Positions 34,701 through 43,700 of a DNA stretch of 64,000 bases are shown one piece after another. A program made the position numbers. Numbering within the stretch: position 1 is the first letter of the stretch; each line of letters begins with the position of its first letter. The stretch covers positions 38,440,001-38,504,000 of the forward strand of contig CM069131.1 in the NCBI GenBank assembly GCA_035221665.1, given 5' to 3'. Source of the stretch: Okamejei kenojei (Eukaryota).

Positions 34701-37700
34701 AGGCGACCAAAATTGTACACCATGCTCCAGAATTGGTCTTACCAATGCCTTGTACAATTTTAACATTACTTCCCTACTCCTATATTCAATGCTCTGATTT
34801 ATAAAGGCTAGCACACCAAAGGCTTTCTTTACCACCCTATCTACATGCAATTCCACCTTCAGGGAACTATGCACAGTTACTCCTAGATCCCTCTGTTCCA
34901 CAGCATTTCTCAATTCCCTACCATTTACCATGTACGTCCCATTTTGATTTGTCCTGCCAAGATGTAGCACTTTACACTTAACAGCATTCAACTCCATCTG
35001 CGATCTTTCAGCCCACTTTTCCAAATGGCCCAAATCTCTCTGTAGACTTTGAAAATCTACTTCATTATCCACAGCACCACCTATCTTAGTATCATCTGCA
35101 TACTTACTTATCCAATTTTCCACCCCATCATCCAGATCATTGATGTACATGACAAACAACAGTGGACCCAACACAGATCCCTGAGGCACCCCACTGGTCA
35201 CCGGCTTCCAACCTGACAAACAGCCATCCACCATTACTCTCTGACATCTCCCATTCAGCCACTGTTGAATCCATCTTGCTACTCCGCCATTAACACCCAA
35301 AGATTGAACCTTCTCAACCAACCTTCCATGGGGAACCTTGTCAAAGGCCTTACTGAAATCCATGTAGACAACATCCACTGCTTTACCCTCATCAATTTCC
35401 CTAGTTACCGCTTCAAAAAAATTCAAGAAGGTTTGTCAAACATGACCTTCCAAGCACAAATCCATGTTGACTGTTCCTGATCAGACCCTGTTTATCCAGA
35501 TGCTTATATATATTATCTCTAAGTATCCTTTCCATTAATTTTCCCACCACTGACGTCAAACTAATAGGTCTATAATTGCTAGGTTTATTCTTTGAACCCT
35601 TTTTAAACAATGGAACAACATGCGCAGTACGCCAATCCTCCGGCACTATTCCCGTTTCTAATGACATTTGAAATATTTCTGTCATAGCTCCTGTTATTTC
35701 TACACTAACTTCCCTCAATGTCCTAGGGAATATCCTGTCAGGACCTGGAGACTTATCCACTTTTATATTTTTCAAAAGTGTCAGTACTTCCTCCTCTTTG
35801 AATCTCATAGTTTCCATAGCTACTATACTTTTTTCCCTTACCTCACAGAATTCAATATCCTTCTCCTTGGTGAATACCGAAGAAAATAAATTGTTCAATA
35901 TCTCCCCCATCTCTTTTGGCTCTGCAGATAGCTGTCCATTCTGGTTCTCTAATGGTCCAATTTTATCCCTCGTTATTCTTTTGCTATTAATATAGCTGTA
36001 GAAACCCTTTGGATTTACTAATATAGCTGTAGAAACCCTTTGGATTTACCGTACGGTAACCTACAAAATGAATAATTAGAATGGACAGCAGCACTTCGGG
36101 TTGAGACCTTATACCTGGGCTGAAAGAATAGAGGGGAGAAGAGCAGAATGCCAGATAGCCAGTGTGTTTTTCTTTCCACATTGTAAATTATTAACTTTGT
36201 CCATTGATTTACAAAGTTTTTGTTTAGAAAAAAAATGCCATGAGCAATGGGACTTTAACAAATAAAATAAATGTAAAGTTTTTTTTCTGAAATACTGAAA
36301 CTTTTAAATAACATTTAGATTAAAAAAATTAGATATAATAATATTTATGCAAATATATTTGCCCTCTCTGCAGCCAAAACTTTCTCACATACCCATCAAC
36401 TCTCCTTGGATCCTCCTGCCAGTTACCTTCATGAAGAGGAAAAAGCTACTTCACCCACCTGCACATCCTCAGGATGTGGGGAGAAACCTGAAGCAAACCC
36501 ACGCGCTGAGCATATAAACTCCATGCATACAGCACTCATGATCAGGATCATACTTGTGATCCTGATGCTGTGAGGTAGCAGCACTAACTGACGCACCACC
36601 ATCAGCACTTTCATTGTCAGAGTGGGTCAGTTTAGTTTATTTATTGCCACGTGTACCGAGGTATAGTGAAAAGCTTTTGTCGCGTGCTAACCAGTCAGCA
36701 GAATGATAAACATGATTATAAACTATCCATTTACAGTGTATTGATACATGATGAGGGAATAACGTTCAGTGCAAAGTAAAGCCAGCAAAGTCTGATATGG
36801 GTCAGATGGATTGGTAGGTTATTATCTAAATCCTATCTTCAAATGTTATGTCAAAGCCTTAATTTGGTTCTATTTTCATTTTGCCCATGAGAAAGTACTT
36901 CATACTTGAGGAAATTACTGATTTGCCATTCTTTCCTTTTTTTTGTACCAGAGCAAAACATTTGTGGATGCAGGATGCACAGATAATGATTCAAACAGGG
37001 TCCTCTCTGTAGGTCAAACAGTATTGCTTCCGCTTGCTGTTCGGCCTTACTTTTCTGTCCGAGACGAACTGGCCATTGAAGGCGGGTTTATCAAAAAGGT
37101 CCATAAGGCAGTGATCCTGGCTTCACTCCAACTGGAGGTGTGGGTTCTTATCCCACTTCTGATACCATGTGCAAAGTACTTATGATACAGAGTCATTATA
37201 TATCATAACAAGTTCTTTAATTTGGATACATACAGAGACCATCGAGATGAGTACTGTAGGCTCTGAATCGTAAGTTAAAACCTAAAAACAACATGACTGC
37301 CTGAATGCCACCAGGTGGTGATGGTGTGGAAAACCTGACATGGATAATAGTAAGATTAAACGAGAACTTACCAGTTCGAAGTTTGATCGTTATTTTATGA
37401 GGAGTAACGATGAGGGATTACGTGAAGAAGCCCCGCCTGGCGCTGGAACGGCATACTTCAAAGCAGCGGCATGAAAAACACAGAACGTAATAGCCGGAGT
37501 AAGATAGTAAGGCTCAACATAGATTTAGAACTACCAGATGATCATTTATTTTATGAGGGTCGGGAGTGGAGGGCACGTAATCCCTTATCGTTACTCCTCA
37601 TAAAATAACAATCAAACTTCGAACTGGTAAGTTCTCGTTTAATCTTACTATTTTACTTCGGAGTCACGTGAGTGACTACGTGAAGATTTTGAAGCTTTCT

Positions 37701-40700: not shown

Positions 40701-43700
40701 TACACCTGTAATCCCCCACATCGGAGATTTCATGAACTTATTTTGTAACAAGTTGTTTGCATCTCTTCAACGTACTTCAAGCCTTCTTTTCACAATTATA
40801 TGGGTTCGGATAAGGCTATGTTGGATTATATTTATTTATCATACTTCTGCCTTTGTTTTGATCCATTATTAAATCTTTATATTGGATCATAATTTTTCCA
40901 TAGTCTGTTTTTTTGTAACCAATATTTTTGATTTATCATAAGGCAGGTTTTATTCCTTAATAATCAAGAGTTTAACATAACCTGATTTGTATTGATCTGC
41001 AAATCTAGAGTGCAGATTTGGTCCCTATAAAATTTCCCATTGAGCTCCACAAACTGATGGCAATTTATTTTTATTTTAAATGTATTGGTTATTTGCACAA
41101 TGTTTTATTTGTTTTCCATTGAATAGTAATGCCATGCACCAGTTTGAAATACTTTGAAATCGTATTTCCTTATATCTCATATAATTGAGACATGGCTATC
41201 ATAAACGGATTCACCGTTAATATAATTATAAAACATAAAGGTTTTATCATATTCTGCTGTTTCAACCATAACAGCTTTGGTGAGACCAATTAATTTTTAG
41301 TTTCCATGTTTTACTTTTCATGGCCTCACTCATTCATTCGGGTATCGTACCTAGTACACCTCTATATATATTTTGTGCTGAAGTGTACTTGAATAAAACA
41401 TAAAAGTTTTATTATTATTCTGCTGTTTTAACCATAACAGCTTTAGTGAGAGACCAAATAAGTTTGGTTTCCATGGTTATTTTCCATGGCCTCAGCTTTA
41501 GTGAGAGACCAACTAATTTTGGTTTCCATGGTTATTTTCCATGGCCTCACTTCTTATTCAGGTGTTGTACTGTGACTACCTGTGACAGAGACTACCTTCA
41601 AACATATCTGAGGTAGATATTCCCACAAAATTTCATCATATATATTAATATATGAAACCCCCTTAGGGTAGGTTAGGGAATGTTTTTGGGCCTTTTAACC
41701 CTTTTTGGCTTGAATTCTTTATTTATTTTATTTTTTATTTTTTTGGAATCTTTTTTCCATTATTTTTCAAGCCATAAAGCTTTTATTAGTCTGAAGGCCT
41801 TTTATTGAACTTTTTAAATTATGGCCTTTCTGACTTTATAAAATTCCCCCCCCCCCCCTGCCAAAAGTTTGTGGAGCGACTAAAAAGTCTTCCTAACGTA
41901 ATTTTGACGGCCACCGGTATCGGAACCGGCTCCGTAATCTCCCGTCCCGATCGCTTCCCTTAGGACGTTCTTTTAAAACTCCGTTGTTTATTTTATATAG
42001 AGTATTTCCTTTTATTTTAACATTTACTTATTTTTTACTTTTAAATTAGTTTTAAATCCTGGTGGTTCAATACCAGCCACGGAGTTTTTTAGACCCTGAA
42101 AGTGTTTTCCACTGCACTTACCTACCGCTGTCGAGGAGCTGCCTCTTTAGCTCATGCTCTGCCGTCAGCGTCGACATAATGCCGTTCCAGCGCCAGGCAG
42201 GGCTTCTTCACGTAGTCACTCACGTGACTCTGAAGTAAAATGGATCAGGTCATCAGCAGCAAAACCAGACACGGATCAAATCAGTAATACTGTTTGATCT
42301 ACACTCTCACCTATGTCCCAACTGGGTATGTCCTCATTCTGAGAAACAATTATTATTTCATGTAATACAACATGATCTTATGACTACTAGTAACAATTTC
42401 TAACTGGTTAGAAATTCGTCAATGGGTGTTCTCACACATCAAATCAGTATTGTGTGGTCCTGCTCGATGGTCTGACACACCATGCCAAAAGCATCTTGCA
42501 CGCTTAAGTTTCCTCTACAATTTGAGGCACGTAAGCCGTTGCAATCATAAAAAATACTCAATTAGTCAGTGCTTGTATTTCCAGTGATATGTTTTCACTC
42601 AGTGCCTTAATATGTTTCACGATACAATACATTTCCAGGTTTATGCATTCTAATATAAATATTTGGCATTCAACCAGGAGGCTTAGGCTGATGTTTAATT
42701 CAGTACTTAGGGCATATTTACATAGGCATTTTAACAATGGTCGGTTTCATGTTATCACAGACAGTTATCACATCCAATGAAGGAGTTTGAGATTGCCTGT
42801 ATTATAAATTCAAATAACTGAAAATCTAAATTAAGTGATTCACAATTGCTCAGGATGGCACAATTCGTGATACCATTATTACCAATGTAACTATTTGGGC
42901 CTTGTATGACCATTGCAAGCTGACTTCCAGGATCCTCAAAAAGTCAATTGCAAAGTGTACAGCGAGCATAATGGTGAATTGGGGGATTGAGAGCGGTAAA
43001 ACCTAGAGCTTACCATCTGCACCGATTTTACAGATCTCAGTGCCTTAAAACACTTCTTTTAATAAAAATGACACATTCACCATATTCTTTTTTTGGAAAC
43101 ATTTGGAAGTTCTTTGTATTGGTAATATGAATCACATAATCCACCTTGGATTAAATACATGGGAGAGAAGAATGGCAGGTTTTGCCCAGTTTATGAACCC
43201 ATAACAGTCATAGCAGCTCCAAATTTTAGTGGTTTACTTTGTTTCTGAAGCATTTTGTATGCTGTTTCCCTAAAATCCTATTAAAGAAAACTCCATGTAT
43301 GGGATAAACCTATCATAACGGCATAACAACTGTTTAAAGAGCCCTATTCTGACACTAACCAGAACTGTGTTTTACAGGCACCTGTGGTTTCTCAAGTTTC
43401 TTCTACAAGCCAAACAGCTAGCCCAAAAATACTTCTGGGGGCCACAAATTTAAAGGCAAATGTTCTCTTTTTAAGTTACTTTATTGTAGGGCTGAGAATT
43501 AATTTGACAACCTGCAATTGCTACACCAACTCTCTTGGCAAATTCACTTTTGCTAACTTATAGCAATGACTGGTAGGTCTCTTCTGCTATCACAAATTTT
43601 CGAGCTGATCAACTACAAAAGAAAACACAATATGCAACTAGGATCTATGTTCCACAGGGTTACATCAGTAGGACGCACATTGAAAGGAGTTTTGAGCCTG

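What the first reader, a model, noticed from the sequence alone, without database searches (positions are those of the whole stretch)
37346..42241. DIRS 'ghost': near-perfect ITR/ICR cis-signals around a heavily decayed, AT-rich interior (candidate full-size non-autonomous DIRS lineage)
Seen: the ITRs differ by 1 of 36 nt and the ICR differs from the adjacent terminus at only ~2 positions over ~80 nt. The ~4.5-kb interior is far more AT-rich than copies B and D, and the ORF track lists no ORF between 38985 and 42589. Only scraps of YR (LTLKVIMLMTLVST, ALLITHKKPH), RNaseH (NTMAVAYI) and RT (VYLD) survive. Known: in the DIRS1 model the termini are regenerated from the ICR at each retrotransposition. 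Inference: the interior decayed over many replication cycles in trans while only the cis-signals were maintained. That would make it a parasite of autonomous DIRS rather than an old fossil. A directional mutational (deamination-like) process is an alternative.
[Added by the scan's program, not by the reader: the finding's places include an assembly gap (unread letters, written N; its length is only estimated) at 38541 to 38697. Whether the letters on both sides are continuous or in frame is not known: test that first.]
Basis: partly seen in the sequence, partly recalled or inferred. Interest (0 to 1): 0.7.

Follow-up and report, generated by a model that had tools for sequence, protein, structure and literature searches.

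The report
Decayed DIRS retrotransposon with intact ends
This is a full-size copy of a DIRS-type jumping gene whose genes have rotted to near-random AT-rich sequence while the short end signals needed for copying are almost perfect, which suggests it was copied recently using enzymes borrowed from working relatives.

Summary
Window 37346-42241 (genes on the - strand) has the full DIRS1-type end architecture. The inverted-repeat core matches 35/36. The internal complementary region (ICR) matches the left end 36/37 and the right end 77/79. The 4.3-kb interior has GC 0.333, against 0.516 and 0.542 in neighbouring copies B and D. Its CpG o/e is 0.40, equal to background, and its stop density is near random. 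Only collinear relics remain: tyrosine recombinase (E 1.4e-18), a Dam-like domain (E 7e-7) and RNase H (E 0.008). No reverse transcriptase or gag was found.

All four end/ICR mismatches are transitions, three at CpG sites. The ends keep CpG o/e 1.2-1.3 and 77-80% identity to B and D. The interior was therefore already decayed when this copy was inserted, so copying in trans is the best reading (confidence about 0.6).

A transition-only deamination of a B/D-like copy is rejected.

Copy number, shared lesions and an autonomous partner could not be tested, because only 64 kb was available. Copy B shows the same pattern (perfect end signals, broken genes), so C is the extreme of a continuum. Non-autonomous DIRS elements are already known (TOC1). 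Interest is moderate.

The parts
37346..42241 (-). Whole DIRS1-type element 'copy C' (bounds +/- 2-3 nt). It is 4896 nt including a gap of estimated length.
   Evidence: The ends align to copies B and D. B is 5191 nt and D about 5126 nt. There is no target-site duplication of 5 nt or more.
37346..37454 (-). 3' inverted terminal repeat: outer extension 37346-37424 plus ITR core 37419-37454.
   Evidence: The core matches the 5' ITR core 35/36. The extension matches the ICR 77/79. The whole 3' block 37346-37707 is 79.8% identical to B over a 367-column alignment.
37455..37573 (-). Spacer between the 3' ITR core and the ICR (the loop of the 79-nt inverted repeat).
   Evidence: I23: 149 nt between the arms. 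It is partly conserved with B and D (alignment A1).
37574..37686 (-). Internal complementary region (ICR). On the gene strand its 5' part (37650-37686) is complementary to the start of the 5' ITR. [quoted passage not shown]
   Evidence: Matches are 36/37 and 77/79. The layout is as defined for ITR/ICR-type DIRS in PMC8969392 (passage read). B versus C: 9 substitutions are mirrored on a terminus and its ICR partner, and 3 are one-sided.
38067..38948 (-). Tyrosine recombinase gene relic (broken), interrupted by the assembly gap.
   Evidence: 38067-38531 matches profile positions 148-298 of 351, 56.8 bits, E 1.4e-18. There are 12 in-frame stops in 155 codons, and a second overlapping match points to at least one frame change. 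48 of 69 YR relatives hit at E<=0.01. The N-terminal SAM-like part right of the gap (38703-38948) is weak: E 0.096 against D's YR, and no profile hit.
38541..38697 (.). Assembly gap (157 N, length estimated).
   Evidence: The edges do not overlap. The gap was not filled.
39021..39599 (-). Relic of the 3' part of the pol gene (broken): RNase H relic and Dam-methyltransferase-like C-terminal domain relic.
   Evidence: Profile of 18 RT-RH-MT relatives. Positions 534-627 score 16.5 bits, E 7e-7, and positions 435-483 score 3.0 bits, E 0.008. In all, 143 of 632 positions are covered, with 11 in-frame stops in 138 codons and 1 frame change between pieces. Domain names come from Pfam on relatives P0001, P0003 and P0016. 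RVT_1 scores E 4e-19, and Dam is sub-threshold at 17.8-25.7 bits against a cut-off of 28.1.
39600..42159 (-). Unassigned AT-rich interior where RT and gag/ORF1 would be expected. It includes a local tandem duplication at 41228-41570.
   Evidence: No RT signal even at E 1000. No credible Pfam family in the 110 open segments. Beyond two weak collinear matches at 39863-39976 (E 0.26) and 40142-40192 (E 0.006), there is no credible tblastn hit from B or D fragments or from the 18 relatives. No DNA match to B or D.
42160..42241 (-). 5' inverted terminal repeat: ITR core 42179-42214 and left terminus 42205-42241.
   Evidence: 77-81% identical to the 5' ends of B and D over 72-78 nt. The terminal 37-39 nt (as carried by C's ICR copy) are 97% identical to the left termini of B and D, and C's left terminus itself is 95% identical to B's ICR part. 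CpG o/e is 1.21.

Best explanation
Copy C is a recently inserted, non-coding derivative of a DIRS1-type tyrosine-recombinase retrotransposon of the same group as neighbours B and D.

- **What the lineage kept.** Only the cis-acting parts survive: the two inverted terminal repeats and the internal complementary region. In the DIRS-1 model these let the cDNA ends be rebuilt and the circle be closed.
- **What it lost.** The gene-bearing interior lost constraint and drifted to the genome's AT-rich, CpG-poor equilibrium.
- **How it was copied.** Because the interior cannot encode RT, RNase H or recombinase, the last copying event must have used enzymes supplied in trans by autonomous relatives.

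Shown: the architecture, the decay, and the contrast between ends and interior.

Inferred: decay before insertion, trans-mobilisation, and lineage-level selection on the ends.
For: **Architecture and age of the insertion**
1. The architecture is complete and near-perfect: 35/36, 36/37 and 77/79.
2. The 4 mismatches are all transitions, 3 at CpG sites. This is the expected first damage after insertion.
3. Mismatch is about 2.6% between partner sequences. That is far too little in-situ change to turn genes into sequence with 0.065-0.070 stops per codon (random expectation 0.083).

**Ends versus interior**
4. CpG o/e is 1.33 and 1.21 in the ends. It is 0.40 in the interior and 0.38 in the background.
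5. The ends are 77-80% identical to B and D. The terminal 37-39 nt of the left end are 95-97% identical.
6. The interior does not align to B or D at all. In both 4-letter and purine/pyrimidine code its scores equal those of shuffles, while B versus D scores 918 and 661.

**Ancestry and lineage history**
7. The interior is truly DIRS-derived and collinear. It has YR at E 1.4e-18, a Dam-like domain at E 7e-7 and RNase H at E 0.008, all on the - strand in DIRS order.
8. YR relatives closest to D are also closest to C (Spearman 0.85, n=69).
9. Nine B-versus-C substitutions are mirrored between a terminus and its ICR partner, against 3 one-sided. C's cis-signals therefore went through at least one replication cycle after diverging from B's.

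**Search for an intact close relative**
10. The 82-aa open segment gave 0 hits at E<=0.001 among 1.84 billion representatives.
11. The 61-aa segment gave none at E<=10.
Against: - **One copy only.** Only one copy was seen, with no second copy of the interior in the 64 kb. Copy number and shared lesions are unknown.
- **Uneven decay.** The YR relic scores 57 bits over 151/351 profile positions. The pol relic scores 20 bits over 143/632, and RT and gag score nothing. Uniform drift does not predict this. The 5' 2.5 kb could be unrelated filler.
- **Copy B shows the same pattern.** It has perfect cis-signals (82/82, 37/37) but broken genes: 17 stops in 539 pol codons, and 2 stops and 2 frame changes in YR. 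Either defective copies are mobilised generally, or an unknown in-situ process keeps ends and ICR alike.
- **Ends outlast interiors in B and D too.** Between B and D the ends are 87% identical (I6) and the interiors 69.9%.
- **The model itself.** The ICR-templating model is described as not fully proven (PMC5633606, passages read).
- **The gap.** An assembly gap lies inside the element.
- **No intact partner in view.** B and D, the only full-length neighbours, are themselves broken.
Confidence: 0.6

Rival explanations
1. Recombinant or chimeric origin. Young, functional-type ends became joined to an old fossil interior. The join could be template switching between two RNAs in one copying event, recombination among clustered DIRS copies, or a scaffolding artefact. 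Under this reading there was no lasting non-autonomous lineage.
For: - At least four DIRS copies or fragments lie in the 64 kb. DIRS-1 is reported to insert into existing copies (PMC5633606).
- Similarity to B stops abruptly about 20 nt inside the ICR and about 80 nt inside the 5' end.
- Decay is uneven along the interior.
- A scaffold gap lies inside the element.
Against: - Each side of the gap on its own carries young-looking ends directly next to decayed interior, so the join does not create the paradox.
- The YR relic sits at the same distance from the 3' end as in D: about 740 nt against about 690 nt.
- Two precise exchanges exactly at the borders of the cis-regions, without homology, would be needed.
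- C's ends are not copies of B's or D's (77-80% identity).
Confidence: 0.15
2. Old in-situ fossil of a divergent DIRS family. Its ends only look young because ICR and termini are kept alike after insertion (gene conversion between nearby inverted repeats), or because the ends escape methylation.
For: - The 79-nt arms are only 149 nt apart, which could favour conversion.
- Copy B also combines perfect arms with broken genes.
- Ends are more conserved than interiors between B and D as well.
Against: - The 37-nt ICR part and the left terminus are 4.5 kb apart, are very short for conversion, and still match 36/37.
- Conversion between partners would not keep 77-80% identity to other copies, nor CpG o/e of 1.2-1.3.
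- Escape from methylation would spare CpGs only. Just 1 non-CpG mismatch is seen in 152 paired positions.
Confidence: 0.12
3. Hypermutation. An autonomous copy was hit by a directional deaminase-like or RIP-like process during or after its last copying, which made the interior AT-rich and full of stops.
For: - The interior is strongly AT-rich (GC 0.333). Its gene strand is purine-rich in 8 of 8 500-nt windows, with AT skew +0.119 and GC skew +0.148. This is a strand asymmetry that symmetric in-situ decay does not predict.
Against: - Recoding to purine/pyrimidine, which hides all transitions, gives no alignment to B or D. Observed scores are 24-31 against shuffle maxima of 31-34, while B versus D scores 661.
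- The ICR, ITR cores and spacer are reverse-transcribed with the interior. They are not AT-shifted (GC 0.40-0.54, CpG o/e 1.2-1.3).
- Of the 11 stops inside C's alignments to the RT-RH relatives, which include P0003's YR part, none lies opposite tryptophan.
- The unknown parent need not resemble B or D, so this exclusion is not complete.
Confidence: 0.05

Closest known systems
DIRS-1 of Dictyostelium and ITR/ICR-type DIRS elements of animals
   Same: It has inverted terminal repeats with unequal outer extensions. [quoted passage not shown] There is no target-site duplication. The relics follow the order RT-RH-(Dam-like MT)-YR.
   Different: No gene is intact. RT and gag are undetectable. The interior is AT-rich and CpG-depleted to background level.
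TOC1 of Chlamydomonas, called 'the non-autonomous DIRS retrotransposon' in PMC9940879 (passage read)
   Same: It is a DIRS-order element without its own enzymes that is held to move with help in trans.
   Different: TOC1 is from a green alga. From recall, not from a call, its ends are of the split-direct-repeat type. Here the ends are of the ITR/ICR type, the host is probably a cartilaginous fish, and the interior is a full-size relic of the genes. TOC1's mobility is documented by copy-number differences between strains. For C only one copy is seen.
SIRE, the truncated non-autonomous form of the YR retroelement VIPER in Trypanosoma cruzi (PMC6681497, passage read)
   Same: The ends of an autonomous YR retroelement are kept and the coding capacity is lost. 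The same open question applies: mobile with borrowed enzymes, or mere remnant.
   Different: SIRE is short (about 435 bp) and arose by internal deletion. C is full-size (4.9 kb) and lost its genes by decay.
LARD/TRIM non-autonomous derivatives of LTR retrotransposons (named in PMC8498967, passages read; their properties are from recall)
   Same: It has a large non-coding interior between conserved terminal cis-signals that are shared with an autonomous partner family.
   Different: LARD and TRIM belong to a different order of retrotransposon, with direct LTRs and integrase. LARD interiors are conserved among copies, which could not be tested here.

Membership tests
DIRS1-type (ITR/ICR) tyrosine-recombinase retrotransposon | Inverted terminal repeats | tested here: met
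   The core matches 35/36. An extended alignment matches 48/52 with 1 gap.
DIRS1-type (ITR/ICR) tyrosine-recombinase retrotransposon | [quoted passage not shown] | tested here: met
   Matches are 36/37 and 77/79. The definition is from PMC8969392.
DIRS1-type (ITR/ICR) tyrosine-recombinase retrotransposon | No target-site duplication | tested here: met
   The flanks share at most 4 nt in C. This falls to 2 nt if the terminus is 2 nt longer, as in B. B's flanks share 2 nt and D's share 0.
DIRS1-type (ITR/ICR) tyrosine-recombinase retrotransposon | Encodes a tyrosine recombinase | tested here: inconclusive
   Homology is clear (E 1.4e-18, 151 of 351 profile positions). The gene is broken, with 12 stops in 155 codons. 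It is a relic, not a gene.
DIRS1-type (ITR/ICR) tyrosine-recombinase retrotransposon | Encodes reverse transcriptase / RNase H | tested here: not met
   There is no RT signal at E up to 1000. The RNase H relic scores 3.0 bits, E 0.008. The same profile gives 338 bits on B and 577 bits on D.
Non-autonomous retrotransposon derivative (TOC1-, SIRE- or LARD-like) | No coding capacity of its own | tested here: met
   The longest open stretch without N on any of the six frames is 82 codons. Stops run at 0.065-0.070 per codon on the gene strand. No ORF of 60 aa or more lies in 38985-42589.
Non-autonomous retrotransposon derivative (TOC1-, SIRE- or LARD-like) | Cis-signals shared with an autonomous partner family | tested here: inconclusive
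   The ends are 77-80% identical to B and D, and the terminal 37-39 nt of the left end are 95-97% identical. B and D are themselves broken. Intact relatives were found only as database proteins, two of them named from Leucoraja erinacea. The host of the window is not established.
Non-autonomous retrotransposon derivative (TOC1-, SIRE- or LARD-like) | Several copies that share the same non-coding interior and the same lesions | not testable with these tools
   Only 64 kb of the host is held, with no second copy in it. The collections on hand cover prokaryotes, phages, plasmids and E. coli.
Non-autonomous retrotransposon derivative (TOC1-, SIRE- or LARD-like) | Signs of transposition after loss of coding capacity | tested here: met
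   This is by inference. There are 3 mismatches in 116 terminus/ICR positions against a saturated interior. CpG is retained in the ends only. Nine substitutions relative to B are mirrored on terminus and ICR.

The most novel reading that the evidence does not exclude
A long-lived, full-size non-autonomous lineage of ITR/ICR-type DIRS elements exists in a cartilaginous fish. For a very long time it was kept alive only by selection on about 450 nt of end signals, while it used the enzymes of autonomous DIRS relatives. The uniform purine-rich bias of its dead interior would then be the mutational footprint of many passages through RNA and cDNA, not of decay in the chromosome.
Probability: 0.35. 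Interest if true: 0.55.

Novelty: new member of a known kind. Interest (0 to 1): 0.4.

Why it matters
- **Minimal cis-requirements.** If the reading is right, this copy marks out what a DIRS1-type element needs in cis: about 82 nt at the 5' end and about 340-360 nt at the 3' end. Everything between was free to decay.
- **Support for the replication model.** Substitutions mirrored between termini and ICR (9 of 12 differences between B and C) are comparative support for the ICR-templating step of the DIRS-1 model. A review describes that model as not fully proven (PMC5633606).
- **Annotation.** Full-size DIRS 'ghosts' carry no protein signal, so protein-based repeat finders would miss them. Pfam found nothing even in the better-preserved copies B and D.
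- **Literature.** In the open library searched, the phrases 'non-autonomous DIRS' and 'nonautonomous DIRS' occur only in the published and preprint versions of the Chlamydomonas genome paper, which applies the term to TOC1. A vertebrate case would be an addition to a known kind, not a new kind.

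Tried and rejected
- **Pfam on open segments.** Nothing credible came from the 110 open segments of C. Pfam also found no DIRS domain in the 144 segments of B and D, so it is simply insensitive to these fragments. I replaced it with tblastn and with profiles built from fetched relatives.
- **DNA alignment of C's interior to B and D.** blastn with 7-nt words and Smith-Waterman in 4-letter and purine/pyrimidine code gave nothing above shuffles. A substitution spectrum against B or D therefore could not be computed for the interior.
- **Search for an intact close relative.** I used two open segments of C as queries. The 82-aa segment gave 0 hits in 1.84 billion representatives. 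The 61-aa segment gave none. This is weak negative evidence, because the queries are short and decayed.
- **APOBEC-type signature.** Stops opposite tryptophan in intact relatives were 0 of 11 in C, 0 of 33 in B and 0 of 25 in D.
- **Nested RNA-derived repeats.** Rfam gave only 2 chance-level matches at E<=1, and no tRNA was found.
- **Empty-site test.** I searched the flanks against the window for a paralogous uninterrupted site and found none.
- **Target-site duplication.** None was convincing.
- **Gap edges.** There is no overlap.
- **Not possible.** A genome-wide copy count was not possible. The prokaryote genome collection and the phage, plasmid and E. coli collections were not used, because they cannot hold this host. 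Paper supplements were not consulted.

Full report
**Setting.** The 64-kb window holds a cluster of DIRS-like elements.
- Copy B is at 12237-17427, with genes on the - strand.
- Copy C, the finding, is at 37346-42241, with genes on the - strand.
- Copy D is at about 44145-49270, with genes on the + strand.
- A fragment lies at the window start, 1-541.

The best named relatives of D's proteins are 'uncharacterized protein' entries of the skate Leucoraja erinacea, at 66% and 52% identity. The host is therefore probably a cartilaginous fish, though this is not established. Nothing suggests human sequence.

**Checking the observation.** On the gene (-) strand, C has the full architecture that PMC8969392 (passage read) gives for ITR/ICR-type DIRS.
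- The 5' ITR is at 42241-42160 and the 3' ITR at 37454-37346.
- The ICR (37686-37574) lies just upstream of the 3' ITR.
- The ICR's 5' part matches the start of the 5' ITR 36/37. [quoted passage not shown] The ITR cores match 35/36.

Interior GC is 0.333, against 0.516 (B), 0.542 (D) and 0.419 for the rest of the window. No ORF of 60 aa or more lies between 38985 and 42589. The quoted YR peptides are present.

**The assembly gap (38541-38697).**
- The edges do not overlap: best local score 8, against a shuffle mean of 9.1.
- Left of the gap, a profile of 69 tyrosine recombinases matches 38067-38531 (profile positions 148-298, 56.8 bits, E 1.4e-18), right up to the gap.
- Right of the gap lie the Dam-like domain relic (39033-39308, E 7e-7) and the RNase H relic (39413-39550, E 0.008). 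They are on the same strand and in DIRS order.
- The YR N-terminal relic right of the gap is only weakly supported (E 0.096) and has no profile hit.
- Both sides therefore fit one collinear element.
- Each side on its own shows young-looking end signals directly abutting decayed interior. The central contrast does not rest on the scaffold join.

**What the interior is.**
- *No DNA match to B or D.* blastn with 7-nt words finds matches only at 37346-37707 and 42160-42248. Smith-Waterman scores of the interior equal those of shuffles, while B versus D scores 918.
- *Collinear protein relics on the - strand.* The YR relic covers 151 of 351 profile positions, with 12 stops in 155 codons. The RT-RH-MT profile is covered at 143 of 632 positions for 20 bits, with 11 stops in 138 codons and one frame change between pieces.
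- *No RT or gag.* No RT signal appears even at E 1000, and no gag/ORF1 signal appears. The same pol profile gives 338 bits on B and 577 on D.
- *Random-like stop density.* Stops run at 0.065-0.070 per codon in all three gene-strand frames, against 0.083 expected from base composition.
- *Same DIRS group as D.* The 69 YR relatives rank alike against D and against C (Spearman 0.85), so C's relic comes from the same group as D. One caveat applies: the 69 were chosen by likeness to D, and partial proteins lower both scores.
- *Domain names.* They rest on Pfam hits in relatives. RVT_1 scores E 4e-19. Dam and the Phage-integrase SAM-like domain fall below Pfam's cut-offs in my own scan. PF00589 and PF13495 are listed as precomputed for most YR relatives.

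**When did the decay happen?** Four observations bear on this.
1. The end/ICR partner sequences differ at 3 of 116 positions and the ITR cores at 1 of 36. All four differences are transitions, and three are at CpG sites. This is the first damage expected in methylated germline DNA.
2. CpG o/e is 1.33 (37346-37709) and 1.21 (42160-42241) in the ends. It is 0.40 in the interior, the same as the background at 0.38.
3. The ends are 77-80% identical to B and D, and the terminal 37-39 nt of the left end are 95-97% identical.
4. Of the 12 positions where B and C differ in a terminus or its ICR partner, 9 carry the same change on both partners and 3 are one-sided.

In the DIRS-1 model the missing end sequences are rebuilt from the ICR at each cycle (PMC5633606, passages read, which also says the model is not fully proven). 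Under that model, little has happened since C's insertion. The loss of genes and of CpG in the interior must therefore predate it. An element with no RT, RNase H or recombinase can only have been copied with enzymes made elsewhere.

**An important control.** Copy B has perfect signals (82/82 and 37/37). Its genes are broken all the same.
- In pol it has 17 in-frame stops in 539 codons and at least one frame change.
- In YR it has 2 stops and 2 frame changes.

D has no ICR at all: about 108 nt are missing relative to B and C. Its genes are also broken, with 5 stops and 6 frame changes in pol and 1 frame change in YR.

So 2 of the 2 copies that have an ICR combine (near-)perfect signals with dead genes. 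C is the far end of a continuum, not a unique oddity. Between B and D the ends (87%, I6) also outlast the interiors (69.9% over 3346 nt). This strengthens the general idea that cis-signals are selected while interiors are free to decay. It weakens the claim that C is a specialised parasite lineage. It also leaves room for an unknown in-situ process that keeps ends and ICR alike.

**The deamination alternative.**
- Recoding to purines and pyrimidines removes all transitions. C's interior still does not align to B or D: observed scores are 24-31, shuffle maxima are 31-34, and B versus D scores 661.
- The ICR, spacer and ITR cores, which are copied together with the interior, are not AT-shifted.
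- No stop lies opposite tryptophan in relatives: 0 of 11 in C.
- A transition-only hit on a B/D-like parent is therefore rejected. A hit on an unknown parent in earlier cycles cannot be excluded.
- One feature remains unexplained. The interior's gene strand is purine-rich throughout: A 1604, T 1262, G 820, C 608. A exceeds T and G exceeds C in 8 of 8 500-nt windows. Strand-symmetric decay in the chromosome does not predict this. It may be inherited composition or a footprint of passages through RNA and cDNA.

**What speaks against the best reading.**
- Only one copy is seen.
- Decay is uneven: the YR relic is far better kept than RT.
- The 5' 2.5 kb (39600-42159) has no assignable ancestry and holds a local tandem duplication (41228-41570), so part of it may be filler.
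- The two searches for an intact close relative were made with short, decayed queries.
- No intact partner is in the window.

**Comparison with what is known.**
- C works like, and structurally is, a DIRS1-type element. It fails the coding criteria, so it is a non-coding derivative.
- Non-autonomous YR retroelements are known. TOC1 is called 'the non-autonomous DIRS retrotransposon' (PMC9940879). SIRE is a truncated non-autonomous VIPER (PMC6681497).
- In the library searched, the phrases 'non-autonomous DIRS' and 'nonautonomous DIRS' occur only in the two versions of that Chlamydomonas paper. This is not proof that nothing is in print elsewhere, since Repbase-type libraries and subscription journals were not searchable.
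- I rate it a new member of a known kind.

**Verdict.**
- Best explanation: a recently inserted, trans-copied, non-coding DIRS derivative. Confidence 0.6.
- Rivals: recombinant or chimeric origin (0.15), in-situ fossil with homogenised ends (0.12), hypermutation (0.05).
- Interest: 0.4.

Noticed in passing
window 12237-17427 (copy B): Copy B has perfect end/ICR complementarity (82/82 and 37/37). Its pol and YR genes are broken all the same: 17 stops in 539 pol codons, and 2 stops and 2 frame changes in YR. This is the same paradox as in C, at an earlier stage and still GC-rich (0.516).
   Followed up: partly
window 48870-49270 (3' end of copy D): Copy D lacks the ICR. About 108 nt present in B and C are missing (alignment A1), and no ICR-like match was found. 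D's true 5' end is near 44145, not 44138.
   Followed up: partly
window 1-541: A fragment of a fourth DIRS copy is cut by the window start. Positions 70-185 match D 44520-44635 in inverted orientation at 84% (I13). Positions 504-541 resemble the left terminus.
   Followed up: no
window 37710-42160 (interior of C): The gene strand is uniformly purine-rich, with AT skew +0.119 and GC skew +0.148. A exceeds T and G exceeds C in 8 of 8 500-nt windows. B and D show little or no such skew. This is unexplained.
   Followed up: partly
window about 42115-42130 (C) and the matching place in B, alignment A2: A splice-donor-like AGGTAAGT motif is conserved in B and C, and is one base off in D. It lies roughly 100-160 nt inside the 5' end, in otherwise poorly conserved sequence.
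   Followed up: no
5' regions of B (about 17310-17330) and D (about 44230-44256); also 434-475, 4695-4730, 9750-9776, 33960-33990, 61383-61412: Long G or C homopolymer runs (10 to about 35 nt) occur 60-110 nt inside the 5' ends of B and D but not in C. Similar runs occur at several other places in the window (families D3, D5, D15).
   Followed up: no
window 41228-41570: There is a local tandem duplication inside C's unassigned 5' interior. About 100-nt units are 80-86% alike, and a 55-nt unit occurs twice at 96% (41438-41549).
   Followed up: partly
window 28217-28826 (+): A weak reverse-transcriptase-like signal appears against the DIRS pol profile (11 bits, E 3e-5). It lies outside any DIRS end structure and probably belongs to another retroelement.
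   Followed up: no
window 43935-44133 and 49424-49639: Copies of one dispersed repeat lie on both sides of copy D in the same orientation (73% identity). More copies are at 62505-62669, 51528-51646, 34033-34104 and 61854-61915.
   Followed up: no
window 58793-59036 and 16867-17201: There are GC-rich tandem arrays. One has a 38-nt period with 5 overlapping 92-nt copies (D2). The other has units of about 85-100 nt inside B's 5' ORF region (D9 and D18).
   Followed up: no
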